Virus record (IMG/VR): IMGVR_UViG_3300048609_000030
Source of the DNA: an uncultured virus (IMG/VR IMGVR_UViG_3300048609_000030)
Lineage: Duplodnaviria; Heunggongvirae; Uroviricota; Caudoviricetes
Reading direction: 5' to 3' (one strand)
DNA: 20,000 bases
Shown here piece by piece: positions 311 to 20,000 of this stretch (its first letter is position 1; each line of letters opens with the position of its first letter). A program made the position numbers and the translations under genes. A model generated the notes under the pieces. The model had not been told where the DNA came from and ran no database searches. It worked only from the letters and a program-made list of their open reading frames with translations.

Positions 311-973
311 ATGGCAGACCTGGGAGCTTACAACCTTGAACTTATGGATTCGGACAAGTCGGTAGACCTGTTCGGTCTTGACGAGTTCGGCAACCCGACT
401 GGTATGGACCAGATCTGGGGCGCAGTCATCGGTGGCGGCCTTGGTACGGGTACCGCGATTGCGGTTCGCGCACTCGCTGGTGAACCGGCTGCTGGCAAGT
501 TCGACTGGAAGAAATACTCCGAGGGTGTCGGCTTCCTGGTTGGCGGCGCTGCTAGCGGTCTGATGATGGCGTTCGAGGGTACTCGTGCAGCGGGCACCGC
601 AGGATTGGCAGTGGCCTTCCTGACCAACGGTCTCCGTCAGCTCGAAAGCCTTTTCAGTGAGAAGTCGACTGGGCTTGGTGCAGCGACCATCGAACGGCTG
701 AACGGTGTCGTGATGGAACGTTTGTCGCCTGGGACCAGGAACGTCGGCCTCGGCATCCCAAGTGCCCAGTACGTACCTGAAGCCTACGGCACCATCCCTG
801 GCGTTTACGGCACTCCTGTTGCCGGTACTCAGATCTCCACCGGTCAACCACCGGTCGATCTGATGGCGCCGCAAAACCTGCCGCAGAGCGCGTATCAGGT
901 CGAGCTGATGGGCGGTCCTGCTCTCAGCGGTCTGGGTATGCACTACGGCGCGACCCTCTTCGGCAGCGACTGA
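311..973 (+). CDS. Membrane-associated putative virion protein, Gly-rich, with multiple [LF]G motifs
   Basis: Strong RBS TAAGGAG upstream of ATG. Three hydrophobic Gly/Ala segments in the N-terminal half. Repeated DLG/LFG/GLG motifs. Lies directly upstream of the putative major capsid gene. Confidence 0.7.
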   Translation: MADLGAYNLELMDSDKSVDLFGLDEFGNPTGMDQIWGAVIGGGLGTGTAIAVRALAGEPAAGKFDWKKYSEGVGFLVGGAASGLMMAFEGTRAAGTAGLAVAFLTNGLRQLESLFSEKSTGLGAATIERLNGVVMERLSPGTRNVGLGIPSAQYVPEAYGTIPGVYGTPVAGTQISTGQPPVDLMAPQNLPQSAYQVELMGGPALSGLGMHYGATLFGSD

Positions 974-1065
974 CAGAAGAACAACTAACCGTCGGCCGTG
1001 AAGCCGACAAGTGAAAACAACCGGTCGGTGACGACCAGAAGAAAAACCTTTCAAGGAGGCTTATC

Positions 1066-1773
1066 ATGCGCGGAACAGTCGGTGTAGCACCTGGTACCAC
1101 TACCCTCACCCTGCCTGACGGCACTGCTGTTGCCCTCGCGGACTGGATCGACGACAAGCTGTATGGCACCGTCCAGTTTGCGAACGGTCAAGCCACGCCG
1201 ATCGAGGCGTTCTCGGCTGGCCGTAGCCAGGCGATCCCTGGTGGTACTCGCGTTCAGACGCGGGTTGACACTAACATCCCACGTAACGGCGACTCGGGTC
1301 TGCCGAAGGACTGGGAGATGTTGGTTTACGGCTGGGGCCTCAAGATGACCCGCGTCTGCCGTCCGCAGACTGGTCAGGCACAGCCCGTTCTCGGTGATGG
1401 CACTGGTGCGCTCTCCGACCCGCCGCGTCTTGCGACGCTGTTCGGTGTCGACCGTGTGGTCTTCATGAGCTACGAGTACAACGCGAAGATCTACACCTCG
1501 GGTGTCATGCAGGACTATCCGCAGGGACACGGCTACAGCGTGTTCAGCACGAACACCTCGTTCGAGCTGGCACAGAACGGCATCCCATCGCCGCGTGACC
1601 GGCTGGCGCTGGTGCTACCGGTCCACGAACGCGAGAATTTGGGCTTCAAGATGATCTTTCAGCCCGAGGCTGCACTGATCATCGCACAGCCCGCCAGCGA
1701 TGGTGGTGCGAACCTCACCTTCGCGGACATCAAGACCTATAAATACGGCCTCATCAAAAGGACAGTTGTGTAG
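1066..1773 (+). CDS. Putative major capsid protein, single jelly-roll type
   Basis: Very strong RBS AAGGAGG, strong C/G third-position bias and a terminator downstream indicate high expression. The 235-aa sequence is beta-strand-like with an LYGT…F…G…T..DTN…G.LP…M.V.G pattern and a terminal …YGLIKR strand, which I associate with jelly-roll capsid proteins. The fold call is inference. Confidence 0.55.
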   Translation: MRGTVGVAPGTTTLTLPDGTAVALADWIDDKLYGTVQFANGQATPIEAFSAGRSQAIPGGTRVQTRVDTNIPRNGDSGLPKDWEMLVYGWGLKMTRVCRPQTGQAQPVLGDGTGALSDPPRLATLFGVDRVVFMSYEYNAKIYTSGVMQDYPQGHGYSVFSTNTSFELAQNGIPSPRDRLALVLPVHERENLGFKMIFQPEAALIIAQPASDGGANLTFADIKTYKYGLIKRTVV

Positions 1774-1825
1774 CAATTTCGAGCAGATAGCTGCTGAGAT
1801 AGTACTACTGTCCGTCTGTATCCAC

Positions 1826-1870
1826 CTTGAAGGCCCAACACCAGAAATGGTGTTGGGCCTTCGAGTTTTT
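1826..1870 (+). terminator. Intrinsic terminator after the putative capsid operon
   Basis: Stem CTTGAAGGCCCAACACCA / TGGTGTTGGGCCTTCGAG (18 bp, one G-U) with a GAAA loop, followed by TTTTT. Confidence 0.85.
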
Positions 1871-1939
1871 CAGCAAAAACAAGTTGTAGAAGGTAAAAGA
1901 TTGACCGAAGAAGTGTTTGTGCCTTTCTGCCTCGTCCGC

Positions 1940-1969
1940 TTGTATCAACTTTCGATACGATGGTATATT
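1940..1969 (+). promoter_or_regulatory. Sigma70-like promoter, probably leaderless, for the methyltransferase
   Basis: TTGTAT-18-TATATT with an extended -10 TG. ATG at 1977 lies 7 nt downstream and has no SD. Confidence 0.5.
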
Positions 1970-1976
1970 GCCGCAA

Positions 1977-3515
1977 ATGCTTTGTCGTGCTTCTTTGCAA
2001 ACAAACGGCAACTTGAATCTTCCAGCTGACCTCAACGTAGATGACGCAGCAGCCCTTTCTGTACGTTTTCAACGTGCTGATCTCGACGTGGCTGTGGTGG
2101 CAACATTGTCACGGTGGCATCAACGTTGTTGGATGATGTTTCCTGGTGAAGCTCGTAGATTGTGTCAACCACCATGTCAGCTTGATGTTGATGTGACCAC
2201 GTTAAAAGATCTTGTGGCAACCGACACACGAGCACTTGTCCCGTGTAATGGGATCGTAAGGTTCAAGGCACGCATACGAGAACATGGTGGCTTGCTCGTA
2301 TCTGTACCACTGGTTTGGTATCGCGGAATGCAGCGCGCAGGATGGTCTCATGAAGTAGCAGTTCAGGTTACCTCTACAAAAGACACGATAAGATTTAAGC
2401 GTATGTTATCTGTACGTGCAGGCGGCAAGACGGTTGTTTTAGCGCTGCCACGTTCCACATGTTCAATGTTAGAAGCTAACCAAGAGGTTGAAGTTGAACT
2501 ACGTCCACATAAGGCCGCGGGCGCACCTGACCTAATGCAGTTGAAGCACTTTCCGATTAACGAATGGTGCACGTGGACTAAAGATAGACAAGAAGCGGAG
2601 TTGGCTATTCTTGTAGAGACATATCGTGCTGCAGGGTTTCCGTGGGATGTTGTACGTTCTAGAACAGAACGTGCACCGCTTGATGGTGTAAGAAGAAGTC
2701 GTATCAGCGTAGTCGGCGATCTTATCAGCAGTGTCGGTTACGCGGGACAACGCACTTGTCTTGCAATTCACGCACATCGTTTGAATGCTCGTTGCGGAAA
2801 ATCACCGTCAGTGGTTGAGGCATTTGAGAATGATCGACTACTACGACACGCGTTACGTTTTCAACTTGATCGCGGGAATCCAGTAGTACCACATCGTCTG
2901 TTGCGTGCACTGTCTGCACTAACGCACAGTCCGCTTAACTTTCCACCTACGTTGGCGCGTTGGCTGGTTGATCTATACGCCCCAGAAAACGGCATCGTTT
3001 TTGATCCGTGCTCAGGATACGGTGGCCGTTTACTCGGGTCTCTTGCTAGTGTAAAAAGCGTCACGTATGTCGGTGCGGACATCGAACCAGCTAGTGTCAG
3101 TGCAAATATCAGGTTGGCTGCGTTTTTAGGTGCTGCACATCGTGTAATACAAGAAGAGCGCGCAATTGAGACTTCTTGTGCTTGGCCTAAAGCAGACCTC
3201 GCTCTTGTGGGTCCGCCATACTACAATCGCGAGAACTACGGTGAAGCTTCGTACAAGGCTTTAACTAACTATCCAACTTATGATGTGTGGATCGAACAGT
3301 TCGTTTCACTTCTTGTTGTGCGTACATTGGAGGCAGCACCTGTAGCTGTATTTAATGTGGCAGCTATACGAGACAAAACTGTCATCAGAGATTTACCTGC
3401 TGATCTGATTCGGACAGCACAACAGCTCGGCATAAAAATAGAACGGATTCTGGAATGGAAAACGGCTAGGTTTAACAGCGCACGGACCGAAAAGCTTATC
3501 GTATTGACACGATAG
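1977..3515 (+). CDS. Amino (N4-C/N6-A) DNA methyltransferase-like protein with N-terminal AbrB-like repeats
   Basis: Motif I VFDPCSGYGGRLLG, YVGADI, and motif IV-like GPPYYNRENY. The ORF is open from 1917, but ATG 1977 is the preferred start given the promoter. Confidence 0.8.
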   Translation: MLCRASLQTNGNLNLPADLNVDDAAALSVRFQRADLDVAVVATLSRWHQRCWMMFPGEARRLCQPPCQLDVDVTTLKDLVATDTRALVPCNGIVRFKARIREHGGLLVSVPLVWYRGMQRAGWSHEVAVQVTSTKDTIRFKRMLSVRAGGKTVVLALPRSTCSMLEANQEVEVELRPHKAAGAPDLMQLKHFPINEWCTWTKDRQEAELAILVETYRAAGFPWDVVRSRTERAPLDGVRRSRISVVGDLISSVGYAGQRTCLAIHAHRLNARCGKSPSVVEAFENDRLLRHALRFQLDRGNPVVPHRLLRALSALTHSPLNFPPTLARWLVDLYAPENGIVFDPCSGYGGRLLGSLASVKSVTYVGADIEPASVSANIRLAAFLGAAHRVIQEERAIETSCAWPKADLALVGPPYYNRENYGEASYKALTNYPTYDVWIEQFVSLLVVRTLEAAPVAVFNVAAIRDKTVIRDLPADLIRTAQQLGIKIERILEWKTARFNSARTEKLIVLTR

Positions 3516-3617: not shown

Positions 3618-3623
3618 GGTTAA

Positions 3624-4607
3624 ATGCAGCTTGATGACTTTCCCTACATCGCTGGCTATTTTGATGCTGAAGGTTGTGTTGGCCTTGCTTTTAGCACTGC
3701 TTGGTCTTGCTACGTGCAGTTCAAACAAACACAGCCCCAGGTCATTGCATGGTTGCTTCAACAATTCGACGGCAACACTTGGATCGAAGAACCTGAAGTT
3801 GGTCGACGACTTCTTCGTCTCAGATTCTGTTCGTTTGCTGAAACAACAAGATTTTTGCGTGCTATTGAACCGTTCTGCAAAGAGAAACATGAGCAAGTAG
3901 TAAAGGTACTAGAACAGTATCGACCAGACAGTACTACGAATTGGCGTCTCAAACGGGAATTGGAAGATTTAAAGAAAGCTGTAAGTAGGCCGCTTATTCT
4001 GGAGAAACACCTAGCGGTTGCTGTCCACGATCCGAATCGTCTTTGTTCGGTAGTAGGGTGTACCAAGAAATCTTTCGCGCGTGGACGATGCTCGGTACAC
4101 TACACTGCTGCACGTCTTAAAGGAGAGTTTACACCTCGAAAAAGACAAGAAGGCGTACCGTTTGTGTATGACGTCGTGCCGACAGATGACGACCGCCGTT
4201 ACTTAGCGGGATATTTTGACGGTGATGGTTGTGTATTGGTACACCGTGAGAAATACGGTTGGGGCATCAAAGTGCATTTTGGACAAACACAACTGCACGC
4301 GATCAAGTTAATGCACACAATCTACCACGGGTCATTGTCGGAACGTCGTGTCAAACCTGGCTGCAAACCTGTTTTCGATCTGCAAATTGTACAACGTGAG
4401 GCTGCTCTTGCCTTTCTACGTGACGTACAACCATATACTAAAGAGAAGCGCGATCAAATTGATATCGCCCTTGCTCAATATGATCCACGTGCTTCAAAAG
4501 AGACAGGGGTATTACTACAACAAACACTGACGGCGATGAAGAAACGTGAATACACAAAAAACGATCTTACTACCCTTGTCAACCGTGTTGTCCGAAACAG
4601 GGCGTAG
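3624..4607 (+). CDS. Free-standing double-motif LAGLIDADG homing endonuclease with a central Zn finger
   Basis: Motifs YIAGYFDAEGCV and YLAGYFDGDGCV, each followed by F.QTQ and K.EQ/K.DQ. The linker contains CSVVGC-x9-CSVHY. Confidence 0.9.
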   Translation: MQLDDFPYIAGYFDAEGCVGLAFSTAWSCYVQFKQTQPQVIAWLLQQFDGNTWIEEPEVGRRLLRLRFCSFAETTRFLRAIEPFCKEKHEQVVKVLEQYRPDSTTNWRLKRELEDLKKAVSRPLILEKHLAVAVHDPNRLCSVVGCTKKSFARGRCSVHYTAARLKGEFTPRKRQEGVPFVYDVVPTDDDRRYLAGYFDGDGCVLVHREKYGWGIKVHFGQTQLHAIKLMHTIYHGSLSERRVKPGCKPVFDLQIVQREAALAFLRDVQPYTKEKRDQIDIALAQYDPRASKETGVLLQQTLTAMKKREYTKNDLTTLVNRVVRNRA

Positions 4608-6796: not shown

Positions 6797-7393
6797 ATGT
6801 CTACTGAGTACTGGAATCAACGCAACGAAGTCTTCGTCAAGACCTACCAAAAACTGAACGACCTCCCCGCTGATGGCCTTGCGGGCGAACAAACCTTTAC
6901 CGCACTCGACGGTCGTTGCTGGCCACTCAGGAACCTACCTGACGGGCGCGAGTGTTTCATCACCAACCCGTTCAAGGCAGGTGTCCACGACGGCGTTGAC
7001 GTCTTTTGGCGTTGGCAAGACGGTGACCAGCTCATCGACGGCTACTGGACCAAGTTCGGTGACGGCCGAGTTTGGTATCCCTATGGAACGCGGGCTGTCG
7101 TCGCGTGTGACGGCGTTGTACGCCGTAGCGAGGCCATTACTACAGGCTGGCTGGTAACCGTCGAGCACGCCAACGGAGACGTGACAGGCTACTTCCATGG
7201 CGTCAAACAGACGGCGCTAGTGAAGCCTGGCAACAATGTCGGGATGGGAACGCCAGTGTTCTATTGTGGGTGGGACTTGCGACAGCCGTTGTCTGAGGAT
7301 AACGTCGTACACGTGCACTTCAGCGTGCAGCGGGACGGTGCTTTCATCGACCCTGCAGCGTGGTTGAAGTATGCAGCGCACAACATCATATGA
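6797..7393 (+). CDS. M23-family peptidoglycan endopeptidase with an N-terminal PG-binding-like domain (putative endolysin)
   Basis: HDGVD (HxxxD), TGYFHG and HVHF (HxH) motifs. The N-terminal VKTYQKLNDLPADGLAGEQT matches the PG_binding_1 pattern. Confidence 0.85.
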   Translation: MSTEYWNQRNEVFVKTYQKLNDLPADGLAGEQTFTALDGRCWPLRNLPDGRECFITNPFKAGVHDGVDVFWRWQDGDQLIDGYWTKFGDGRVWYPYGTRAVVACDGVVRRSEAITTGWLVTVEHANGDVTGYFHGVKQTALVKPGNNVGMGTPVFYCGWDLRQPLSEDNVVHVHFSVQRDGAFIDPAAWLKYAAHNII

Positions 7394-7414: not shown

Positions 7415-7902
7415 CTACCTGGAATCACTGGGTGCGGCAACCACAATTAAGAACCCTTGAAAACAGATCTCCACACGTGTGTTGGGAGCTATACCCGCTG
7501 TTATCAGGTTGTCGACTGTGACCTGAAAGCCTTCTGACCTACTCAACACGTAAGGCTCTGCCCACTCCCACGTCTGTTCTGATGTACCTTTGGTCATCAG
7601 CTCAATGAGTATTGCGTTCTTGGTCAGGTTTTCGTTCTTCGAGAAGTCGAAGATACGAAGTCGCGTTGCGCGTTGAAGCGCATCAGTAGGCTGTACAGCA
7701 ATTAACGCGAGGTTGGCGTCGAGACCTGTAACGCGTGGGATCACACGGTGGATCTCGAACGGCTTGTCCGAGTTGTGTAGGAACGTTGCTTCGGGGAACT
7801 GAATGCCGATTGCGCCGGCAGCTACAATCAGTTCACCCGGCATTGAAAAGGGACGCGGAACGAAATCTCTCTTCCTGCAAACCGTGCTGGTAGACGACCC
7901 AT
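7415..7902 (-). CDS. Putative small single jelly-roll capsid protein with a -1 frameshift at 7846-7852
   Basis: RBS AAGGAG 7 nt before ATG 7902 (MGRLPARFAGREISFRVPF). This joins the long frame (SMPGELIV…DKPFEIHRV…LRIFD…EPYVL…FQVTVDN…VEICFQGFL) after a -1 shift at C CCT TTT, giving about 162 aa. Beta-sandwich pattern. Confidence 0.6.
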
Positions 7903-8076: not shown

Positions 8077-8406
8077 GTGGTCATGCGACCAAGCAACATG
8101 AACACCATCACGGTTCCGGCAGTCGGCACGACTACTCCAGGTACCGTAGCGAAGGCAGCAGGAGCACCTCTACGCGTGCTGGTGCGTAACGTAGGGCCGG
8201 TGCTCTGCTTCTTGTCGCATGAAACTGAGAACCTGGCCAATCCAGGCGGACCGTCTACAGGTGTCTATCGCTTGCCGGCTGCAGGAGATGACGTCTTCGT
8301 TCTTGCGCCGGATCAAAACATTTATGCGGTATCGGCTGGTGTTGGTGGCTTGCTGACGATAGCTACGTCAGAAGCGTTCCCAATCGTGCTGCACAACCAG
8401 GATTAA
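8077..8406 (+). CDS. Small beta-rich putative structural protein (vertex/penton-like)
   Basis: GGAG RBS (start GTG 8077 or ATG 8083). Alternating beta pattern RVLVRNVG…CFLS…YRL…IYAVS. First gene of a long + strand operon. Confidence 0.6.
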   Translation: MVMRPSNMNTITVPAVGTTTPGTVAKAAGAPLRVLVRNVGPVLCFLSHETENLANPGGPSTGVYRLPAAGDDVFVLAPDQNIYAVSAGVGGLLTIATSEAFPIVLHNQD

Positions 8407-8409: not shown

Positions 8410-9243
8410 ATGGCACTGTCTTACACCGCTGATCCTACAACTGCTCTAAATCGAGGATATGGACAATTCGATATAATCCTAACAAACTGGGGTAACATAG
8501 GGGCGTCAGCTGATTCTAGAAGTGTGAGCACAGGAAGTCAAAATTACTCGCTTGCGGGGCTTGCTATTCATCCAGATAGTGATGTTGAAACGGTCACTAT
8601 CGGAGGGGTAGCTAAGTTTGACCCTGTAGCACCTATACAAACGGTGAGTATTGACACACCATTTATCGGGGATCTGCCTGGTCCGTGGGGTGCTGCTGCG
8701 GTTGCAAAATCACTATTCAACGCTTTCTATCTCCCCGTAGGTTCAAATGTTGGCGCTGTTTTTGGGTTTGGGATGGGTGCAATACTTGGACGTCCAATCT
8801 TTGGAGGCGCGAAAGGCAGTGTTGTAACGCCCCAGTATCCAGTACTCCGACTCATTGCTTTTCTACGACCGTCATTGTATGCACCCACCGAACGAGGCCC
8901 ACTCTACGACACCGGTGGTGACTACCTGACTGTTGGGGCAGGTACCACTATTATGCGTGTGTTGTCTGTACCGGGACGTAGAAGACTGCGTGCTGTGTTT
9001 AAGAGGGGTGTTGCAGTTGGTAGTTGTGACGTACAGCTGACAGCCGCGTTAAACGGATCTCTCGACGCCACCGCTGCTGCTGCGATAGCCGAGTTTGCAC
9101 TGACGGCCCCGCAAACACTAGCAGCGGCAGGTAACCAGGTAACATTTGATCTTCCGATTCCTTCAAGTGTTGATTGGGTGTTTGTCAAAACGACACTTAA
9201 TGCTGGAGCAGCCGATCTCAACTGGTGGATTCAGGCTGTCTAA
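8410..9243 (+). CDS. Putative structural/spike or receptor-binding protein
   Basis: 277 aa, Ala/Gly/Thr/Val-rich, with a beta-sandwich-like C-terminal domain. More T-rich third positions than its neighbours. Confidence 0.55.
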   Translation: MALSYTADPTTALNRGYGQFDIILTNWGNIGASADSRSVSTGSQNYSLAGLAIHPDSDVETVTIGGVAKFDPVAPIQTVSIDTPFIGDLPGPWGAAAVAKSLFNAFYLPVGSNVGAVFGFGMGAILGRPIFGGAKGSVVTPQYPVLRLIAFLRPSLYAPTERGPLYDTGGDYLTVGAGTTIMRVLSVPGRRRLRAVFKRGVAVGSCDVQLTAALNGSLDATAAAAIAEFALTAPQTLAAAGNQVTFDLPIPSSVDWVFVKTTLNAGAADLNWWIQAV

Positions 9244-9270
9244 CATACACAAAGTGAGTGAGGTTTGAAA

Positions 9271-9627
9271 ATGTGGAACCACAGCGGATTCGGTTACTCA
9301 ACTACTGACGTCAATGGCAAGCAAGTAATCGTTGGCGGTACTGCCGACGAGACAGCGGCCATCAAAGCGTTGCAGCAAGCCATCAAGGTGGCCCAGACAG
9401 GAGCGCTTAGTGAGGGCGATGTTGCAATCTTCAACAAGCATACTGGCTTGAGCTGGGCCGGCGTAGAAATCACAGGTAACATCACGCAGGCGATCACGTT
9501 GGCCTTGCAAGGAAAGGCTTCCACGCCGTGGTACAAGGATTGGAAGATCCTTGTTCCCATCGCGCTTGGTGGCGTTGTAGTCGTCGGTGGCGGCGTCTAC
9601 GCGGCTCGGACACGTCGCGCACAGTAA
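9271..9627 (+). CDS. C-terminally anchored membrane protein with a degenerate PG-binding-like domain
   Basis: RBS GAGGT, leader MWNHSGFG, AIKALQQAI, and a PWYKDWKILVPIALGG… TM segment followed by RTRR. Confidence 0.7.
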   Translation: MWNHSGFGYSTTDVNGKQVIVGGTADETAAIKALQQAIKVAQTGALSEGDVAIFNKHTGLSWAGVEITGNITQAITLALQGKASTPWYKDWKILVPIALGGVVVVGGGVYAARTRRAQ

Positions 9628-9638
9628 GGAGGCCTTCA

Positions 9639-10672: not shown

Positions 10673-10697
10673 TAACGATCCAGTATAGGATGGGTAC

Positions 10698-11600: not shown

Positions 11601-12013
11601 TGCACTACAACACAAAAACCTGTCTCAAGATGGCACGTGATATCGAGCGTATTGCCAACGTCACAGCACACCTGGCCAGCGGCGAGGTCCATGCACCAGG
11701 TGCAGGCAAGCCGACAATTCGCGGCACTGTTTTGGGGCCTGACGACGGCGACGTGGTTTACGCGCTACGGTGCGTCACGCCACAAAAGAAGGGCTCTTTT
11801 GGACCAGGCACTTGTGGGGTGTACGAAATCACCCGCAACGGTCCTGGTGTTGCTGCAAAGGGGCTGAAGCCAAAGACTACCGTGGGCAACTTGTTCGGGC
11901 TCGGCGAGCAGTTGGCACGCGATGCGACCCGTCTGTGGGGCTGCATACCTGAACGCGTCAGCGGCTTCGAGGGTGCAAAGACGGGCCGCCGCGCAAAGAA
12001 AGGCAGACGCTAA
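11597..12013 (+). CDS. Basic hypothetical protein
   Basis: ATGA overlap with the upstream gene. LFGLG and GFEG motifs. C-terminal GRRAKKGRR. Confidence 0.7.
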   Translation: MMHYNTKTCLKMARDIERIANVTAHLASGEVHAPGAGKPTIRGTVLGPDDGDVVYALRCVTPQKKGSFGPGTCGVYEITRNGPGVAAKGLKPKTTVGNLFGLGEQLARDATRLWGCIPERVSGFEGAKTGRRAKKGRR

Positions 12014-12585
12014 TGCTGATTGCCAGCTATCTAGGCGTCACCGAACAGGCGTTAGCGCCCGAGCCCGAGCAACCCTCTGACGACGTGTCTCGCGGGTCTA
12101 CGACGATTGTTGCCCGTCGTGGCACGATCACGACCGCGACAGAAGATGCGGTGCGGACTACGGCCGAAAACCTCGTTGCGCGACGTGTGCCGTTGCCAGC
12201 ACCGATAGCTTTTGAGCCAGCTGTCAAGCCGAAGAAGAGTTACCCGATAGGCACCCTTTACTACTACATTCCAGAGACCGGTATGTATATGGTCTCGTTG
12301 CCGCTCAGCGCCAAATCACTGGAAGGCGCGTTTGGAGCGTTCGGGGAAGATGGTGTTACGAACCTGCCTCCTGAACCGACACCAGTAAAACCTGAACTAC
12401 CTGCGCAAGAAACGACAAAAGAGGTTGTGGAAAAGGCTAGTGGCATATCACCCGTGGTACTCATAGAACCTCCACAACCTTCGACACCTATGTGGAAGAA
12501 GTGGCAGTTCTGGGCGGCGGTTAGCGGTGGCGTGGTTGTGCTCGGAACCGGTGGCTATTTCATTCTTCGAGGAGCACGTCGATGA
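12013..12585 (+). CDS. Pro-rich C-terminally anchored membrane protein
   Basis: TAATG coupling. Leader MLIASYLG, an SYPIG mini-domain, LEGAFGAFG, then PMWKKWQFW + TM + RGARR. Confidence 0.7.
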   Translation: MLIASYLGVTEQALAPEPEQPSDDVSRGSTTIVARRGTITTATEDAVRTTAENLVARRVPLPAPIAFEPAVKPKKSYPIGTLYYYIPETGMYMVSLPLSAKSLEGAFGAFGEDGVTNLPPEPTPVKPELPAQETTKEVVEKASGISPVVLIEPPQPSTPMWKKWQFWAAVSGGVVVLGTGGYFILRGARR

Positions 12586-13877
12586 TTGTTGCACAATTTG
12601 GAGCACTTCCTTCCAGCCTAGTCAGACCCGAAAAACCCGGCGGGATTCAGGCAGCACGCCCCAATCGAATCCCTTCTGGGCCGCATGTTGCTGTAGGTCC
12701 ATTTACCTTTCCTGTGAACGTCAACGAGTATTCGTACAAAGCGTCATACAATAAACTTGTAAGTACTGCTGAGGGCCGCGATCTCATGCAGGACATCTTG
12801 CAAGAGGTAAATAGACTATCCAAAGATACGTTGCATGTTTACGGCACTGCCGTAGGAGAGATGGCTGGCGGAAAGTGTTCAGCAGAACATGCCACCACTT
12901 CTAACGGAGTTGCGTTCGTTCCGGCAGTGCCTCGTTGTAAAGACAGAAAAAAAGCTGACGGTCGAGTGTGGCATAGTATTAGAATTCCAGAGGATCACAT
13001 ATGGGATTATCGATATCTTACCGATGATCCAAAGCTCTTAGTTGACGGGCTTCACCAATTACCTGTTTACAGGTTTGAACATCCTGTGAAGCTTGAACCT
13101 TGGGGTGTGTACATCAGTATCAACGAGTATGGCAATTACAAATTTACCGTAAAGAAGGTTGTCAAGTATCCTAGTTGGCTTGCTAGCCTATGGAACTCGT
13201 TTTGGAATGGTCTCAAAGATCTGGTAGCCAAAATCATCGAGTTTTACGGTGATATCTTCGATATCCTCAAAGCTGCCGCATGCAGCATGGCGCAGCCATA
13301 TCTGACAGATCTGAATAAAATCTCGAACCAAAACTATGCAGGTATGGATCTGGTAGCTACTAACGCTAAGTTCTCTGCGATTGGCATTTCTCCAACACAA
13401 CTATCTTCACTAGCGGCCGGAGGTCTTGAAGTTCAGGCAGCAATGGCGATTGGCCAAGAAGTCGCTGCACGGTTCTGTAAACCGTCAGGCAGCGGCGGCG
13501 GCGGCGGTTTCCCTTGGAGCAGTTATCCCAAAGGCTCCGTTGCGCGACTCAACACTACGCGTAATGTTTGGTCTGTCTACGCACCAACCACCACAACTGG
13601 ACTGGGTGATGCGTATGCTTCAGGTGCAGGTCTGGGTGGTGATCCTGTGGAACCACCGGTTCCAGGCGGCACCACAAAAGTCGGGGAAGAACCAGCGACA
13701 GCACCCAAACCTACTGGTGATCCTGTCAAAGATGGCGGCACAGAAGTCGACAAGCCTATCTACAAAAGAGCATGGTTCTGGGCTTTGATCATTGGCGGTG
13801 GTGCAGCCACTGCGGGCGGGATCTATTGGTGGCGAAAGCGGAAAACACCTCCACAGCTCAAGTCAGCTTGGATGTGA
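12582..13877 (+). CDS. Large C-terminally anchored membrane protein
   Basis: ATGA overlap. Leader MIVAQFG, an amphipathic WLASLWNSFWNGLKDLV helix, poly-Gly, an SYPKG mini-domain, two GLG motifs, then PIYKRAWFW + TM + RKRK. Confidence 0.75.
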   Translation: MIVAQFGALPSSLVRPEKPGGIQAARPNRIPSGPHVAVGPFTFPVNVNEYSYKASYNKLVSTAEGRDLMQDILQEVNRLSKDTLHVYGTAVGEMAGGKCSAEHATTSNGVAFVPAVPRCKDRKKADGRVWHSIRIPEDHIWDYRYLTDDPKLLVDGLHQLPVYRFEHPVKLEPWGVYISINEYGNYKFTVKKVVKYPSWLASLWNSFWNGLKDLVAKIIEFYGDIFDILKAAACSMAQPYLTDLNKISNQNYAGMDLVATNAKFSAIGISPTQLSSLAAGGLEVQAAMAIGQEVAARFCKPSGSGGGGGFPWSSYPKGSVARLNTTRNVWSVYAPTTTTGLGDAYASGAGLGGDPVEPPVPGGTTKVGEEPATAPKPTGDPVKDGGTEVDKPIYKRAWFWALIIGGGAATAGGIYWWRKRKTPPQLKSAWM

Positions 13878-13889
13878 TACAGTGGAAAT

Positions 13890-14036
13890 ATGTTGCGACG
13901 CATAGTACGAAGACCTATACGACCGGCACGGCCAGCGGACGATTGTTGCAACCGTCCTGTACAACGTCCCGAGATACAAAGGCCAGGCGTCAGGCGGCCT
14001 GTACAACAACCAGTTAGGCGGCCAGGTTGGTGGTAA
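13890..14036 (+). CDS. 48-aa Arg/Pro-rich peptide (absent from the ORF track)
   Basis: MLRRIVRRPIRPARPADDCCNRPVQRPEIQRPGVRRPVQQPVRRPGWW*. It fills an otherwise empty gap and follows TG-A-TACAGT by 6 nt. Confidence 0.55.
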   Translation: MLRRIVRRPIRPARPADDCCNRPVQRPEIQRPGVRRPVQQPVRRPGWW

Positions 14037-14092
14037 AAGCACGGTGGAGTGAGGATGTGGTGAGGTGCTAACAACCATGGTGAGACTCCAAT

Positions 14093-14374
14093 ATGGAAGT
14101 AACGCTTCTAGAAGCACTTACCGTCTACGGCCCGCTAGGCATACTGGCTGGTGTAGGGTTTTTTGCTTCGCTGAAGATGTTCCGTACTCTGTGTGAGGAG
14201 CGCACGGCAAAAGATCGGGAGTTACAAAAGGTGTCTGTCGAGCATCGAACTGAGATGCAAGCCATGATCGACCGCTACATAAGAACCACGACCTCTCAGG
14301 TCGAGCAGTACCACAACTTAGCCGACAAGATCGGGGCTGTCCTTGAGTCCCTCACTCAGCGTATGCGGAGGTGA
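14093..14374 (+). CDS. Holin-like membrane protein
   Basis: 93 aa with a single N-terminal TM segment (YGPLGILAGVGFFASL) followed by a coiled coil. The call rests on architecture only. Confidence 0.5.
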   Translation: MEVTLLEALTVYGPLGILAGVGFFASLKMFRTLCEERTAKDRELQKVSVEHRTEMQAMIDRYIRTTTSQVEQYHNLADKIGAVLESLTQRMRR

Positions 14375-14377
14375 CCT

Positions 14378-16634: not shown

Positions 16635-16952
16635 CTACGCGGCTAATAGGCGGCACGCAGGTTCTTTGTGTAGTTGGCACAAACCAGAATAGTACACCTT
16701 GTCCTCAGCAAGGTGGTCCATACTTATTTCACGCGCTTGGTACGGATCGTTCGTGTGTTCCAGTTCGATCAAGGTACCGACCAACAACTGTGTTGGATCG
16801 AAGTCAGACGGTTTCCTACCTGCCGCTCTTCCACCTGGTATTGCCTCGTCGTAGCCCAACTGGTGGGCGCGACGAGAGACGTAGATCGCACCTCCGATGG
16901 TTGCGAGACCAACCGCACCCGCAGCTAGTAGTATGTAATTCTCTGTCCTCAT
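16635..16952 (-). CDS. DUF5661-like protein with an N-terminal TM segment
   Basis: TM YILLAAGAVGLATIGGAIYV, then QLG, then FDPTQLLVGTLIELEHT…AREISMDHLAED..YY. Confidence 0.7.
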   Translation of the reverse strand: MRTENYILLAAGAVGLATIGGAIYVSRRAHQLGYDEAIPGGRAAGRKPSDFDPTQLLVGTLIELEHTNDPYQAREISMDHLAEDKVYYSGLCQLHKEPACRLLAA

Positions 16953-16962
16953 ACCCAGTATC

Positions 16963-17193
16963 TTAGCCTTCTAGTTCTTGGTCCAACTCTGCTAGTGCCG
17001 CGGGCCTGCTTGGCGCCGCTGCTACAAACACGTTTCCGAGTTGGTCCCAGATCCACCACGTACCACCCGACACATCGACTAGCAAGGACTCAGCTTTTAC
17101 GCGTTTCTCTGCGCGGCGTACTGCCCACTTGTGCTGTTGGCAATAGGGGTAGGATTTCGTTTTCGTGCCGCACACTTTGCAGTAGTAGCTCAT
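16963..17193 (-). CDS. Small Zn-finger protein
   Basis: CKVC-x9-CQQH. It starts immediately after the thioredoxin stop codon. Confidence 0.6.
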   Translation of the reverse strand: MSYYCKVCGTKTKSYPYCQQHKWAVRRAEKRVKAESLLVDVSGGTWWIWDQLGNVFVAAAPSRPAALAELDQELEG

Positions 17194-17194
17194 G

Positions 17195-17512
17195 TTAACG
17201 TCCGTTCAAGTGGACGCGGTAAGCAACATCCATCAACGTCTTGATGCCGTGATCGTCGATCGCACCTTCTTCCTTCAACATACCAGGACCGTGGCGGGCC
17301 ACGATAGTCGTAGGAGTGGCTTCGACACCCCACCGATCAGCCAAGCTTTGTATCCGTTGATCCTCAGAAGCAGCGTCGTAGACGAGTACAGGTACACCAG
17401 CTTGGGCGTAAGGTGCGGCTACCCGTTGAAACCGCGGTAGGTACTCTTCACACGCAGGGCAGCCACTCATCAAAAACACAACGACTACGACTGGTGGTTG
17501 GGGCGAGTTCAT
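17195..17512 (-). CDS. Thioredoxin-like protein
   Basis: VVVFLMSGCPAC…LADRWGVEATPT (CxxC plus cis-Pro motif). Start at the internal ATG 17512. Confidence 0.85.
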   Translation of the reverse strand: MNSPQPPVVVVVFLMSGCPACEEYLPRFQRVAAPYAQAGVPVLVYDAASEDQRIQSLADRWGVEATPTTIVARHGPGMLKEEGAIDDHGIKTLMDVAYRVHLNGR

Positions 17513-17553
17513 GGTCTTGATGCTACAACGTTTTCTGCTATTGCGCCAAGTGG

Positions 17554-17946
17554 TTAGTTCTTGTGCCTTTGAAACAACAGCGTCGCAGTGAAAACGCCAA
17601 CAGCGGCCATTCCGAATCCGACGCCGGCAACCCACTGCCACGTTTTGATCTTGGGCGTTGCGTAAGCGCGAACAGCGTCGGCGGTTTTCTGATCCCAAAG
17701 CTGCACGATCTTCGTGTAGATCAAGGCCTGCTCAGCACTAGGCGTTTTGGCAGCTTTCAGGATCTCGCCAGCGCGCTTCAAGTCGCCCGCTTGGACAGCT
17801 CCGAAGACACATCCAGCGACTAGATCGAGGCGGTCTTCGCCAGTGTCCTTCACAAACTGTGTGATGTTGAGGCAGCGGGTCTCTGTGACCGGAATTTTGT
17901 CGCTTTCTTTAACGAGAGCACCAAAACCATAAGTTGCTGTCAGCAT
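17554..17946 (-). CDS. C-terminally anchored membrane protein
   Basis: RBS GAAAGGT, leader MLTATYGFG, then PKIKTWQW + TM + QRHKN. Confidence 0.7.
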   Translation of the reverse strand: MLTATYGFGALVKESDKIPVTETRCLNITQFVKDTGEDRLDLVAGCVFGAVQAGDLKRAGEILKAAKTPSAEQALIYTKIVQLWDQKTADAVRAYATPKIKTWQWVAGVGFGMAAVGVFTATLLFQRHKN

Positions 17947-17973
17947 CACAACCTTCTTTCTACTGCTTGTGTG

Positions 17974-18330: not shown

Positions 18331-18337
18331 AGACTTC

Positions 18338-18409
18338 TGCGGAGTGGAGAAGTAGTAACTCGCGAGCCTCATAAGCTCGAAATCCTGGGTGCAATTCCCA
18401 GCTCCGCCA
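18338..18409 (+). tRNA. tRNA-Met(CAT), initiator-like
   Basis: Acceptor TGCGGAG/CTCCGCC with a 1:72 mismatch and A11:U24. Anticodon arm CGAGC-CTCATAA-GCTCG. T arm CTGGG-TGCAATT-CCCAG. Confidence 0.85.
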
Positions 18410-18418
18410 CCGAGACAA

Positions 18419-18633
18419 GAACATCAACATGTTGTGTTTAGCGAGACATATGCAGCCAACAGCGTCAACGTGGCGCCAAGGAGCATATGTGTTTGCGAAA
18501 CCGTCGAGTGTCTTGGGTTGCAACGAGCCGATTACCTCCCTACCCAAGGCACTCAACGACCACGGGAGGGCTTCAATCTAGGCAGGTAGCAACATAGCCA
18601 GATTGAAGCCACCTAGACCAGGTGGCTTCTTTC
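18419..18633 (+). ncRNA. Candidate unknown structured RNA
   Basis: A series of hairpins and a possible pseudoknot between two tRNAs, with no convincing ORF (see findings). Confidence 0.45.
18605..18633 (+). terminator. Terminator-like hairpin
   Basis: GAAGCCACCT-AGACC-AGGTGGCTTC followed by TTTCGTT. Confidence 0.55.
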
Positions 18634-18638
18634 GTTAA

Positions 18639-18720
18639 GGGGACGTGACCGACTGGGAAGGTACCCGACTGTAAATCGGAGGTCGTCTTGCACGAGGTGG
18701 TTCGACTCCATCCGTCCCCA
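18639..18720 (+). tRNA. tRNA-Tyr(GTA)
   Basis: Acceptor GGGGACG/CGTCCCC, anticodon loop CTGTAAA, long variable arm, GGTTCGACTCC T arm. Confidence 0.92.
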
Positions 18721-18727
18721 CAATGAC

Positions 18728-18801
18728 GGGTCGGTAACTCAATTGGTTAGAGTATCTGCCTTTTAAGCAGAAAGTTGCGGGTTCGAGGCCCGCCCGACCT
18801 A
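18728..18801 (+). tRNA. tRNA-Lys(TTT)
   Basis: Acceptor GGGTCGG/CCGACCT, anticodon arm TCTGC-CTTTTAA-GCAGA, T arm GCGGG-TTCGAGG-CCCGC. Confidence 0.93.
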
Positions 18802-18812
18802 CAAGGTGGTAA

Positions 18813-18998
18813 ATGCGCAAAGAGATTTCCATAAGCAGCAAACAGCTTCTACGGACACGAGACATGGCGGGCTACGATCACGAACGCGGCAAAGTAGGCT
18901 GGGCGCATTGGCGTGCTCGTAAGAAACAAGCAACGGCGCAATACCGCCGAAGATGGTTGGACAGGAAAGCAATCACAGCCAGTGCTGATGGGGTGTAG
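18813..18998 (+). CDS. Small basic hypothetical protein between tRNAs
   Basis: AAGGTGGT RBS-like sequence. 61 aa, Arg-rich, with the last 10 nt overlapping tRNA-Gln. Confidence 0.45.
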   Translation: MRKEISISSKQLLRTRDMAGYDHERGKVGWAHWRARKKQATAQYRRRWLDRKAITASADGV

Positions 18999-19061
18999 CG
19001 TAACAGGCAACGCGCTCGACTCTGGATCGAGAGATTGAAGGTTCAACTCCTTCCACCTCAA
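18989..19061 (+). tRNA. tRNA-Gln(CTG)
   Basis: Acceptor TGGGGTG/CACCTCA, anticodon arm CTCGA-CTCTGGA-TCGAG, T arm GAAGG-TTCAACT-CCTTC. Confidence 0.9.
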
Positions 19062-19122
19062 CGAGAAGTTCTCTGAAAAGTGAATAGAAGACAAAGGACG
19101 CGGGGTTCGAGTCCCCGCAACT

Positions 19123-19195
19123 GTCACTCAAGCTAACCAAGTGGAAGCGGCGGCCTGAAAAGTCGCAGGGCTCGGAGCGTTACCGAGGAGTGACA
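19123..19195 (+). tRNA. Atypical tRNA-Phe(GAA)
   Basis: Acceptor GTCACTC/GAGTGAC, anticodon arm GCGGC-CTGAAAA-GTCGC, T arm CTCGG-AGCGTTA-CCGAG (non-canonical loop), and A at position 8. Confidence 0.75.
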
Positions 19196-19215
19196 CTGTA
19201 TGTTATATTGAGTTC

Positions 19216-19701
19216 GTGAAAACAAAGCAAATTTATGTAAGAGGCAGCCAACTTCCGGCTCTCGTAGACACAGAAGATTACGCACGTGTCGCTATTTACA
19301 CGTGGCGACTTCAAACCAAGAAAAGCGGTGCTGTATATGTTGTTAGCGATTATCGCGACGGTGCTAAAACACATAAGCGGTTGCTTCACCGCGAAGTTCT
19401 TCGAGTGCCGTCAGCGGTTCTTATAGATCATAAAGATAGAAACGGCCTTAATAATACCAAGGCTAATTTGCGGGTAGCAACAGCATCTCAGAATCTACAC
19501 AACCGTCCAGGGCATAAAAATAGCACCTCAAAGTTCAAAGGGGTTTCGTGGAGCAACGAAAGAAATAGGTGGTGTGCTCAAATCATGGTAAATGGTAGGA
19601 CTTACCGGCTTGGGAAGTTCATTTCTGAGGTTGCAGCGGCTAAAGCGTATGATGCTGCCGCTAAAGCGTTAATTGGAGAGTTTGCGTATTACAATTTTTA
19701 G
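19216..19701 (+). CDS. HNH-AP2 homing endonuclease
   Basis: IDHKDRNGLNNTKANLRVATASQN (HNH_3) followed by SKFKGVSW…WCAQI…LGKF.SEVAAAKAYD (AP2). Confidence 0.93.
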   Translation: MKTKQIYVRGSQLPALVDTEDYARVAIYTWRLQTKKSGAVYVVSDYRDGAKTHKRLLHREVLRVPSAVLIDHKDRNGLNNTKANLRVATASQNLHNRPGHKNSTSKFKGVSWSNERNRWCAQIMVNGRTYRLGKFISEVAAAKAYDAAAKALIGEFAYYNF

Positions 19702-20000
19702 GGCGCGTTACGGTTTCGACGTGGGTGAGAAAGAGTTAGACTGCGTGTCGAGGTTGGTCGCGTGGCCTCGTATAAAAGGCGACCAAACTACAAGTGCCAA
19801 CGACAACGTTGACCTTGCTCCGCTTCGGGCTGCTGCCTGAACGGTCGGGTTCCGAGAACCTAGGAACAGAATCTCGGTGGTAGAAGGCGCTGGTTTCGAC
19901 CAGCTCTAACGTACTTGGAGATGGCTAAAATGCTTGCGATGTCAGAAGGCGTTGAGCAAGCTACACACGTAGATGTCTGATCTGAGTATTACTTGCGGAC
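19701..20000 (+). ncRNA. ssrA: tmRNA, 3' end beyond the window
   Basis: 5' GGGCGCGTTACGGTTTCGAC, tag ORF at 19796-19840 (ANDNVDLAPLRAAA*), and the window ends at …GCGGAC just before the expected T arm. Confidence 0.92.

What the first reader, a model, noticed from the sequence alone, without database searches (positions are those of the whole stretch)
311..20000. Candidate large tailless, membrane-containing jelly-roll virus carrying tRNAs and tmRNA
Seen: two or three beta-rich capsid-like genes (1066, 7902, 8077), about ten TM-anchored proteins, an M23 lysin, no recognisable head-tail genes, and a phage-style tRNA/tmRNA island with homing endonucleases. Known: characterised single-jelly-roll membrane viruses (SH1-like, P23-77-like) have small genomes, while tRNA/tmRNA islands are typical of large tailed phages. 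Inference: this may be an undescribed large lineage, probably infecting Myxococcota.
Basis: partly seen in the sequence, partly recalled or inferred. Interest (0 to 1): 0.85.

Follow-up and report, generated by a model that had tools for sequence, protein, structure and literature searches.

The report
Large tailless jelly-roll bacterial virus
This stretch is most likely the particle-building region of a large uncultured bacterial virus. It has none of the head, portal, terminase or tail genes of ordinary phages. Instead it has two small jelly-roll shell proteins among many membrane-anchored proteins, a build so far known only from much smaller viruses.

Summary
The window has 4 tRNAs, a tmRNA cut by the window end, a LAGLIDADG and an HNH-AP2 homing endonuclease, an M23 peptidase, 8 clear membrane-anchored proteins plus about 3 weaker ones, and no head or tail gene.

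gp1066 has more than 460 metagenomic relatives. I read five related IMG/VR genomes in full (77-221 kb, two closed as circles). None has a recognisable HK97 capsid, large terminase, portal or tail-tube gene, and none has an FtsK/HerA packaging ATPase.

The only link to a cultured virus is distant: Salisaeta phage SSIP-1, a tailless membrane phage of 44 kb.

An assembled contig from another study keeps the same gene order up to the tRNAs and joins tRNA-Gln to the tmRNA start without the HNH gene. A second study's contigs show the same joint.

This scan met the same kind of virus before on other DNA (e1-6130748, e1-5710543).

The parts
311..973 (+). gp311, a glycine-rich protein that is probably membrane-associated. 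It always lies directly upstream of the large jelly-roll gene.
   Evidence: tblastn finds it in 16 of 16 related IMG/VR loci at 31-56% identity. It is in the 5-of-5 core set. It has no Pfam or PHROG hit.
1066..1773 (+). gp1066, the large single jelly-roll protein and candidate large major capsid protein. It is the most conserved gene of the lineage.
1917..3515 (+). Methyltransferase-like protein, part of a variable insert.
   Evidence: phrog_12517 at 1.9e-15; N6_N4_Mtase below its cut-off. Shared only with L002 and L015. The X2 contig replaces 1730-4825 with 1842 other letters.
3624..4607 (+). LAGLIDADG homing endonuclease in the same variable insert.
   Evidence: Pfam LAGLIDADG_3 at 5.9e-9; phrog_5046 at 6.3e-26.
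6797..7393 (+). M23 peptidoglycan peptidase with a short PG-binding stretch.
   Evidence: Pfam Peptidase_M23 at 5.2e-9, above its cut-off.
7415..7846 (-). gp7415, the small single jelly-roll protein and candidate small major capsid protein. It is inverted here compared with the relatives.
8077..8406 (+). gp8077, a small conserved protein that follows the small jelly-roll gene in relatives. It was not folded.
   Evidence: Found in 11 of 16 loci at 37-48% identity, always next to the gp7415 homolog.
8410..9243 (+). gp8410, a beta-rich protein that varies strongly between strains. It may be a spike or receptor-binding protein (inference).
   Evidence: Weak similarity in 1 of 16 loci. The X2 contig replaces 8400-9257 with 834 unlike letters while both flanks stay about 93-95% alike.
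9265..14374 (+). A run of membrane-anchored late proteins: gp9265, gp9528 (two PG_binding_1 domains), gp10253, gp10698, gp12013, gp12582 and gp14093. Most are anchored by a C-terminal helix.
   Evidence: Hydropathy scan. Pfam PG_binding_1 at 3.4e-10. A PG-binding tail-anchored family is in the 5-of-5 core.
16635..17949 (-). Minus-strand block: a DUF5661-like membrane protein, a thioredoxin-fold protein with a CxxC motif, and a tail-anchored protein.
   Evidence: Pfam Thioredoxin at 4.2e-5. The thioredoxin is in the 5-of-5 core and in 9 of 16 loci, on the other strand there.
18338..19062 (+). Four tRNA genes: Met-CAT, Tyr-GTA, Lys-TTT, Gln-CTG.
   Evidence: ARAGORN and Rfam at 48-70 bits.
19216..19701 (+). 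HNH-AP2 homing endonuclease. It is present in some strains and absent in others.
   Evidence: phrog_99 at 9e-37; Pfam HNH_3 + AP2. Contigs of X2 and X6 join 19118 to 19701 and skip it.
19701..20000 (+). tmRNA gene, with its 3' end beyond the window.
   Evidence: Rfam RF00023 at 87.9 bits, E 3e-33, model positions 1-346 of 374.

Best explanation
The window is the virion-assembly region, followed by a tRNA/tmRNA island, of a large uncultured double-stranded DNA virus of bacteria. The virus belongs to a widespread soil and groundwater lineage. Complete relatives are 77-221 kb, and a 99%-identical copy of one of its genes lies on a 243-kb contig.

**Proposed build (inferred).** I propose a tailless icosahedral particle. 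Its outer shell is made of two single jelly-roll proteins, gp1066 (large) and gp7415 (small). The shell lies over an internal lipid membrane that carries the many tail-anchored proteins encoded just downstream. The membrane-anchored PG-binding proteins and the M23 peptidase would breach the cell wall at entry or exit. The thioredoxin-fold protein would handle disulfides during assembly.

**Replication.** Replication uses a module like that of tailed phages. In relatives it comprises PolA, an SF3 primase-helicase, an SNF2 helicase, a Sak4-like protein, an exonuclease and RIIA/B.

**Shown here:** the two folds, the conserved gene order, the absence of recognisable tailed-phage hallmark genes in complete relatives, and two genes shared with the tailless membrane phage SSIP-1.

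**Inferred only:** that the two jelly-rolls form the shell, that a membrane is present, and how the DNA is packed. No packaging ATPase was found.
For: **Folds**
- gp1066 model: pLDDT 84.8. gp7415 model: pLDDT 93.7.

**Conservation**
- gp1066 is the most conserved gene: 79% identical between G004 and G005, against 57% for PolA.
- It has 460 relatives and 124 clusters at 50% identity.
- The gp311-gp1066 ... gp7415-gp8077 module is present in 11 to 16 of 16 IMG/VR loci.

**No tailed-phage module**
- G004 (137,914 bp) and G005 (77,539 bp) close on exact end repeats of 123 and 127 bp.
- No large terminase, portal, HK97 capsid or tail-tube gene was found in G005 (111 ORFs against PHROGs and Pfam), in G004 (187 ORFs against PHROGs) or in G002 (134 ORFs of 170 aa or more).
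- Six-frame searches for PF03237, PF05065, PF03354 and PF04860 found 0 of 5 genomes.
- The 5-of-5 core set holds no unknown protein large enough to be a terminase or portal, apart from a coiled-coil protein.

**Link to a cultured tailless virus**
- A transglutaminase-like core protein hits only SSIP-1 gp34, annotated as structural, among 50,697 phage records (E 3e-9). phmmer gives 1e-11 to 2e-9 in 4 genomes.
- SSIP-1 gp48, also structural, weakly matches another core family (8.6e-5; hhalign probability 30).
- Reviews describe SSIP-1 as a 100-nm, T=49, membrane-containing phage with a 44-kb circular genome and two major capsid proteins (passages in PMC6356626, PMC4958249, PMC6260650).

**Island linkage**
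- A 33,187-base contig of run X2, from another study, runs colinear with window 256-18640.
- X2 and X6, from two different studies, both join 19118 to 19701, where the tmRNA starts.
Against: - **No sequence link for the shell proteins.** The gp1066 and gp7415 profiles hit no SSIP-1 protein. The two families are not detectably related to each other.
- **No packaging ATPase.** The only conserved P-loop proteins are the SF3 helicase, the SNF2 helicase and the Sak4-like protein.
- **Tailed-phage-like content.** The replication genes, RIIA/B, tRNAs and tmRNA are typical of large tailed phages. The Atlas taxon labels for neighbouring clusters say Uroviricota.
- **Fibre-like stretches.** Two G002 proteins carry short stretches resembling tail fibres.
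- **Limits of the search.** The absence of hallmark genes rests on sequence profiles only. Only two proteins could be folded. The remaining 57 kb of the window's own contig was not seen.
Confidence: 0.65

Rival explanations
1. It is a tailed phage (Caudoviricetes) whose capsid, portal, terminase and tail genes have diverged beyond the reach of Pfam and PHROGs. On this reading gp1066 and gp7415 are jelly-roll cement, decoration or fibre proteins.
For: - The gene content outside the module is that of large tailed phages: PolA, RIIA/RIIB, SNF2, Sak4, ThyX, ribonucleotide reductase, tRNAs and many homing endonucleases.
- The KHP30/KHP40 and Pam1 cement proteins match gp7415 almost as well as the shell proteins of tailless viruses do.
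- Two G002 proteins have short stretches resembling tail fibres, at 1e-6 to 3e-9.
- Atlas neighbour clusters are labelled Uroviricota.
Against: - None of the hallmark genes appears in five genomes, even at E <= 1 in six frames, nor in whole-proteome scans of G004, G005 and G002.
- In tailed phages these are usually the best conserved genes. Here the 5-of-5 core holds no unknown protein of fitting size; the one large unknown is a coiled-coil protein.
- The only cultured relative is a tailless membrane phage.
Confidence: 0.15
2. It is a membrane-containing virus of another build. One option is an SPV1-like particle, in which jelly-roll capsomers cover a membrane around a DNA-protein coil that forms without a packaging motor. 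Another is a pleomorphic enveloped particle. On either reading it is not kin to the SH1/P23-77 group.
For: - No packaging ATPase was found.
[quoted passage not shown] A word search of that paper found 'ATPase' nowhere.
Against: - SPV1 infects archaea, has a 20-kb genome and encodes no polymerase.
- I did not look for a homolog of the SPV1 nucleoprotein.
Confidence: 0.1
3. The tRNA/tmRNA end of the window is host chromosome next to an integrated copy of the virus. The tmRNA would then be the integration site, not a viral gene.
For: - Relatives encode tyrosine integrases, a 5-of-5 core gene. That tmRNA genes are classic integration sites is recalled knowledge, not tested here.
- One relative lies inside a 4.74-Mb Gemmatimonadota MAG chromosome.
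- None of the five relatives read in full carries a tmRNA.
Against: - No integrase lies near the island in the window.
- The island holds a phage-type HNH-AP2 endonuclease that is present in some strains and absent in others.
- Relatives carry 0 to 13 tRNAs of their own.
- Contigs from two other studies keep the same joint, and a contig of one of them is colinear with the viral genes at about 90-95% likeness.
- G+C of the island (0.49-0.53) lies within the window's range of 0.45-0.59.
Confidence: 0.15
4. It is a large plasmid-like or satellite element that builds no particle of its own.
For: - No capsid, portal or terminase gene of a known family and no packaging ATPase were found.
- Integrases are present.
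Against: - No conjugation genes turned up in the Pfam and PHROG scans.
- Endolysin, M23 peptidase and RIIA/B are present.
- Two structural genes of SSIP-1 are shared.
- A strongly conserved jelly-roll pair sits among membrane proteins, as in membrane-containing phages.
Confidence: 0.05

Closest known systems
[quoted passage not shown]
   Same: - It infects a bacterium.
- It is tailless and icosahedral with an internal membrane, and reviews say it has two major capsid protein types (PMC6356626, PMC4958249).
- It has a large shell, T=49 and 100 nm (PMC6260650).
- It shares a transglutaminase-like structural protein (gp34) and, weakly, gp48 with the lineage.
- Like the lineage it has no FtsK/HerA-type ATPase; its virion 'ATPase' gp40 is of the AAA_25/KaiC type.
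- It has an integrase and an endolysin.
   Different: - Its genome is 43.8 kb, against 77-221 kb or more here.
- The gp1066 and gp7415 profiles find nothing in SSIP-1.
- SSIP-1 has no PolA/SF3/SNF2 replication module, no RIIA/B and no tRNA or tmRNA annotated.
- The shared gp34 homolog lies outside this window.
Helvetiavirae, realm Singelaviria: Sphaerolipoviridae (SH1, HHIV-2, HCIV-1), Simuloviridae, and the P23-77/IN93 group
   Same: - These viruses have two shell proteins of single jelly-roll fold, one larger and one smaller, over an internal membrane (PMC4958249 passage; abstracts listed).
- They give the best Foldseek matches of gp7415 and are among the top three matches of gp1066.
- The shell genes lie next to a run of small membrane-protein genes.
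   Different: - Their genomes are 16-31 kb (abstracts).
- They share a packaging ATPase (abstract of PMC8328091), which is not found here.
- There is no sequence similarity.
- The replication module here is unlike theirs.
- Whether the barrels stand upright in the shell cannot be told from a monomer model.
Portogloboviridae (Sulfolobus polyhedral virus 1)
   Same: [quoted passage not shown]
   Different: - Its host is archaeal.
- Its genome is a 20-kb circle with no polymerase.
- It has a nucleoprotein core and is nonlytic.
- There is no sequence similarity.
Large tailed phages carrying tRNA and tmRNA genes
   Same: - The gene cargo is alike: a tRNA cluster, a tmRNA, homing endonucleases and RIIA/B-type genes.
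   Different: - No HK97 capsid, portal, terminase or tail genes occur in complete relatives.
- That tmRNA genes occur in some large tailed phages is recalled, not tested here.

Membership tests
Caudoviricetes (tailed phages) | HK97-fold major capsid protein | tested here: not met
   Pfam PF05065 in six frames found 0 of 5 related genomes at E <= 1. No capsid family appeared in PHROG or Pfam scans of the window, G004, G005 or G002. These are sequence profiles only; the unannotated proteins were not folded.
Caudoviricetes (tailed phages) | Large terminase subunit | tested here: not met
   PF03237 and PF03354 found 0 of 5 genomes. No PHROG large terminase was found. The only 'small terminase' rows are HTH or HNH stretches.
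Caudoviricetes (tailed phages) | Portal protein and tail genes | tested here: not met
   PF04860 found 0 of 5 genomes. The one 'portal' PHROG row covers a NUDIX domain. No tube, sheath or baseplate gene was found. Two G002 proteins have short fibre-like stretches.
Helvetiavirae (Singelaviria) | Two major capsid proteins of single jelly-roll fold | tested here: inconclusive
Helvetiavirae (Singelaviria) | FtsK/HerA-type packaging ATPase next to the capsid genes | tested here: not met
   PF01580 matched only the P-loop of the SF3 helicase, in 1 of 5 genomes at E 0.012. The conserved P-loop proteins are the SF3 helicase, SNF2 and Sak4-like only. The one Walker A pattern in the window's six frames (at 14017) lies in no called gene.
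Helvetiavirae (Singelaviria) | Internal lipid membrane | not testable with these tools
   Only indirect evidence: 8 clear membrane-anchored proteins are encoded beside the jelly-roll genes.
SSIP-1-like phages | Homologs of SSIP-1 virion proteins | tested here: inconclusive
   gp34 matches 4 of 5 related genomes at 1e-11 to 2e-9 and is the only hit among 50,697 phage records. gp48 matches weakly (8.6e-5; probability 30). No match was found for gp1066 or gp7415. Neither shared gene lies in this window.
Portogloboviridae | VP4/VP10-type jelly-roll capsid proteins with a nucleoprotein core | tested here: inconclusive
tmRNA (Rfam RF00023) | Score above the curated threshold, with a tRNA-like 5' end and a tag reading frame | tested here: met
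   87.9 bits against 47, model positions 1-346 of 374. From the alignment to the consensus I read the tag as ANDNVDLAPLRAAA followed by a stop; this is my inference. The 3' end lies outside the window.

The most novel reading that the evidence does not exclude
A widespread group, of order rank or higher, of very large tailless, membrane-containing bacterial viruses: 77 to at least 221 kb, perhaps 243 kb. They would be several times larger than any described non-tailed virus of bacteria or archaea.

The shell would be built of two single jelly-roll proteins. The viruses would be distant kin of SSIP-1 and would use no known type of packaging motor. They would have taken on the replication genes, tRNAs and tmRNA that are otherwise a mark of big tailed phages. 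A 700-940 aa coiled-coil protein that lengthens with genome size could be the ruler that sets shell size.
Probability: 0.5. Interest if true: 0.9.

Novelty: new variant of a known kind. Interest (0 to 1): 0.8.

Why it matters
**Size.** All described tailless membrane-containing viruses of bacteria and archaea named in the papers I saw have genomes of 10 to 44 kb. Large genomes with tRNAs and a tmRNA have been a hallmark of tailed phages. A common soil and groundwater lineage with 77-221 kb genomes, jelly-roll shell proteins and no terminase, portal or tail would lift the known size limit of this particle type several-fold.

**Classification.** Virus-finding pipelines that expect tailed-phage markers would mislabel such genomes. 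The Atlas already labels neighbouring clusters Uroviricota.

**Packaging.** How more than 100 kb of DNA gets into a membrane-lined shell without a known motor would become an open question.

**SSIP-1.** The lineage would give the orphan phage SSIP-1 a large family.

**In print.** I found no paper describing this lineage in six full-text searches. I saw mostly listings and abstracts, so a description could have been missed.

Tried and rejected
**Reaching the rest of the contig**
- No genome is held for this window.
- Exact 47- and 49-base patterns found nothing in IMG/VR. In the JGI metagenomes they found only a 1,624-base contig.

**Similarity to cultured phages**
- Megablast of the whole window against 50,697 phage records gave no match.
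- tblastn of gp1066 and of two large unknown G005 proteins (758 and 699 aa) gave no match.

**Candidate packaging ATPase**
- The G005 534-aa P-loop protein was tested. The Atlas features and structure point to a DUF5906/primase-helicase type, so I rejected it.

**Large unknown proteins**
- PDB sequence searches with the 699- and 758-aa proteins found nothing useful.
- The 777-aa phrog_2426 protein is a hypothetical protein of T4-like Klebsiella and Salmonella phages. It is missing from G005, so it is cargo.

**Relations between families**
- gp1066 against gp7415 by profile: no relation.
- gp8077 against the gp48-like family: no relation.

**Fold libraries**
- Foldseek of the gp1066 model against solved structures gave no match at E <= 0.001.
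- BFVD gave only generic jelly-roll hits, such as circovirus capsids and some fibre proteins.

**Other searches**
- An 18-base tmRNA pattern in IMG/VR gave two chance matches with no tmRNA.
- No RNA run was listed as holding the stretch.
- In one search, parts of the window had no cover in runs X2, X6 and X10.

**ORF calling**
- My first greedy ORF caller chose wrong-strand ORFs in the 62% G+C genome G004. I replaced it with a codon-usage caller. Five G004 ORFs that crossed locus borders were left out.

**Incomplete or unavailable**
- The primary SSIP-1 paper (PMC3344969) is not held.

Full report
**What is in the window.**
- Genes run mostly on the + strand.
- ARAGORN and Rfam agree on four tRNAs: Met 18338-18411, Tyr 18639-18721, Lys 18728-18802 and Gln 18989-19062.
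- Rfam finds a tmRNA at 19701-20000 with 87.9 bits against a threshold of 47. It covers model positions 1-346 of 374 and is cut by the window end. From the alignment I read the tag as ANDNVDLAPLRAAA; this is an inference.
- I scanned 36 ORFs against PHROGs and Pfam. The only hits were:
  - a methyltransferase-like protein (1917-3515);
  - a LAGLIDADG endonuclease (3624-4607);
  - an M23 peptidase (6797-7393);
  - a protein with two PG_binding_1 domains (9528-10253);
  - DUF2442 and DUF5661 proteins;
  - a thioredoxin (17195-17698, minus strand);
  - an HNH-AP2 endonuclease (19216-19701).
- No head or tail family appeared.
- A hydropathy scan gives strong membrane segments in 8 proteins, mostly C-terminal anchors. 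Three more have weaker segments.

**The two jelly-roll proteins.**
- gp1066 was modelled on 51 aligned sequences (pLDDT 84.8, pTM 0.77). It is an all-beta sandwich with one helix.
  - Foldseek against solved structures gave nothing at E <= 0.001. Its weak list is dominated by jelly-roll capsid proteins, among them SH1, HHIV-2, HCIV-1, SPV1 and P23-77 VP17.
  - The second look gave SPV1 8.6, HHIV-2 7.4, SH1 6.9 and VP17 6.6.
- gp7415 was modelled from the ATG at 7846 (143 aa, 45 sequences, pLDDT 93.7) and is an eight-stranded sandwich.
  - Its only two Foldseek matches at E <= 0.001 are SH1 6qt9_g (3.5e-4) and HHIV-2 6h82_E (4.5e-4). More HHIV-2, HCIV-1 and SH1 chains follow, with P23-77 VP16 at 1e-2.
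- Judging by chain lengths, the larger protein tends to match the larger shell chains and the smaller one the smaller chains. Which chain is VP4 and which is VP7 is recalled, not checked.
- These scores have limits.
  - Peptidylglycine monooxygenase, GOLD and nucleoplasmin-like domains tie with the viral hits.
  - Cement proteins of the tailed phages KHP30 and KHP40 are close behind.
  - The fold is settled. The shell role is not.

**A large, conserved family.**
- gp1066 has 460 relatives at E <= 0.001, and the best 120 are 66-100% identical. They lie on contigs of up to 232 kb, and the window's own contig is 77,433 bases.
- An exhaustive search gives 124 clusters at 50% identity.
- gp7415 has 91 relatives. 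One that is 99% identical lies on contigs of up to 243,706 bases.
- IMG/VR holds 16 loci on contigs of 39-221 kb. Within them:
  - gp311 and gp1066 are present in 16 of 16;
  - gp7415 in 13;
  - gp8077 in 11;
  - the thioredoxin in 9;
  - gp10698 in 5.
- In relatives the small jelly-roll gene lies on the same strand as gp1066 and directly before the gp8077 homolog. In the window it is inverted, and so is the thioredoxin gene.

**Do complete relatives have a tailed-phage module?**
- I read five IMG/VR records in full. G004 (137,914 bp) and G005 (77,539 bp) end in exact repeats of 123 and 127 bp, the usual sign of a closed circular assembly.
- The G005 scan covered 111 ORFs against PHROGs and Pfam. 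It found these genes:
  - PolA fused to a uracil-DNA glycosylase, an SF3-type helicase, an SNF2 helicase, a PD-(D/E)XK exonuclease and a Sak4-like protein;
  - an integrase, RIIA, ThyX, a GH25 endolysin and an M23 peptidase;
  - a thioredoxin and a transglutaminase-like protein.
- It found no large terminase, portal, capsid or tail gene.
- The same holds for G004 (187 of 192 ORFs scanned) and for G002 (134 of 136 ORFs of 170 aa or more).
- G002 has two proteins with short stretches resembling tail fibres.
- Six-frame searches for Terminase_6N, Phage_capsid, TerL_ATPase and Phage_portal found 0 of 5 genomes, the last three at E <= 1 and Terminase_6N at E <= 0.01. The control genomes did score.
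- Clustering the five proteomes gives 15 families present in all five:
  - the three module proteins;
  - a PG-binding tail-anchored family;
  - a family of about 135 aa and one of about 85 aa;
  - the thioredoxin and an HTH protein;
  - a 699-940 aa protein;
  - the replication and recombination set and the integrase.
- The one large unknown has a conserved N-terminal domain, a Pro/Gln-rich linker, a long Glu/Arg coiled coil, a conserved C-terminal domain and an acidic tail. It is not shaped like a portal or terminase.
- The expected FtsK/HerA packaging ATPase is also absent. The only conserved P-loop proteins are the SF3 helicase, SNF2 and the Sak4-like protein.

**The link to SSIP-1.**
- The transglutaminase-like core protein of G005 is 61% identical to its G004 copy. 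Among 50,697 phage records it hits only SSIP-1 gp34, at E 3e-9. phmmer gives 1e-11 to 2e-9 for four genomes. Pfam sees the same domain in both proteins.
- SSIP-1 gp48 weakly matches the 135-aa core family. The record annotates both SSIP-1 proteins as structural.
- Reviews describe SSIP-1 as a membrane-containing icosahedral phage of 100 nm and T=49. It has a circular 44-kb genome and two major capsid proteins, and it remains unclassified (passages in PMC6356626, PMC4958249, PMC6260650; taxonomy).
- The gp1066 and gp7415 profiles find nothing in SSIP-1, so the tie is distant. Neither shared gene lies in this window.

**The tRNA/tmRNA island.**
- Relatives carry 0-13 tRNAs and no tmRNA.
- A 33,187-base contig from a groundwater run of another study (X2) runs colinear with window 256-18640 at about 90-95% likeness. 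Its small jelly-roll gene has the same inverted orientation.
- X2 and X6, from a third study, both join 19118 to 19701. This links the tRNA-Gln region straight to the start of the tmRNA and skips the HNH-AP2 gene.
- The island therefore travels with the viral genes in independent assemblies, and the endonuclease is a mobile insert.
- A shared integration site in related hosts is not excluded.

**Host.**
- GTDB genomes give four loci:
  - one inside a 4.74-Mb Gemmatimonadota MAG chromosome;
  - binned contigs labelled Actinomycetes (28 kb), Polyangiales (10 kb) and Woesearchaeota (1.6 kb).
- In the Gemmatimonadota record the viral genes form two blocks of about 50 kb that lie 1.45 Mb apart. This could be a rearranged provirus or a scaffolding error.
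- The Myxococcota guess rests on one short binned contig.

**Verdict.**
- The best reading is a large tailless, membrane-containing jelly-roll virus, distantly related to SSIP-1 (confidence 0.65).
- Its build resembles that of Helvetiavirae and SPV1. It fails the membership tests for genome size and packaging ATPase, so I do not file it there.
- Helvetiavirae now forms the realm Singelaviria (PMC12714852 passages).
- The main rival is a tailed phage whose hallmark genes have diverged beyond recognition (0.15).
- I found no description in print in six searches.
- The scan itself noted the same kind of virus on other DNA.

Noticed in passing
window 7415-7954 (-) and 17195-17698 (-): The small jelly-roll gene and the thioredoxin gene are inverted here compared with all related loci, where they lie on the same strand as gp1066. 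The X2 contig from another study has the same orientation at 6795-8400, so this is not an assembly error. No flanking inverted repeat was found around 7415-7954.
   Followed up: partly
window 19118-19701: Contigs of two other studies join 19118 directly to 19701 and skip 582 bases, which hold the HNH-AP2 gene. The endonuclease is therefore present in some strains and absent in others, right at the 5' end of the tmRNA.
   Followed up: partly
window 1730-4825: The methyltransferase-like gene and the LAGLIDADG endonuclease form a variable cassette just after the large jelly-roll gene. The X2 contig has 1842 other letters in its place. G002 shares both genes with the window, the methyltransferase-like gene directly after its gp1066 homolog and the endonuclease about 10 kb further on.
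   Followed up: partly
window 8400-9257 (gp8410): The X2 relative replaces this gene with 834 unlike letters while both flanks stay about 93-95% alike. Only 1 of 16 loci shows weak similarity. This pattern fits a host-recognition protein.
   Followed up: no
window: N-termini of gp311, gp9265, gp10253, gp12013, gp12582, gp14093, gp17554(-): Seven of about ten membrane-anchored late proteins have a Phe/Leu-Gly pair within their first 16 residues. gp10253 and gp12013 share an internal AFGAFG motif. The transglutaminase-like putative protease lies outside this window.
   Followed up: partly
relatives: L028:5615-7714(-), L023:1874-4009(-), L036:14224-16413(-), L048:14689-17070(-), L053:15314-18136(-): The core coiled-coil protein lengthens with genome size: 699 aa at 77.5 kb, 729 at 121 kb, 711 at 138 kb, 793 at 196 kb and 940 at 221 kb. 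It could be a ruler for shell size. With five genomes this is only a lead.
   Followed up: no
G006 (L064-L076), Gemmatimonadota MAG chromosome: Genes of this virus lineage lie in two blocks of about 50 kb that are 1.45 Mb apart. The structural block is at about 3.67-3.72 Mb and the replication block at about 2.225-2.272 Mb. This is either a provirus split by a rearrangement or a scaffolding error.
   Followed up: partly
window 5900-6235 and 16294-16626: Two paralogous genes of 110-111 aa with no known family lie 10 kb apart in the window.
   Followed up: no
G002 (L052-L063): The 221-kb relative is crowded with homing endonucleases: more than ten HNH or endonuclease VII hits. One LAGLIDADG stretch lies inside the 1251-aa PolA, at residues 239-415. 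G002 also carries ribonucleotide reductase and 13 tRNAs.
   Followed up: no
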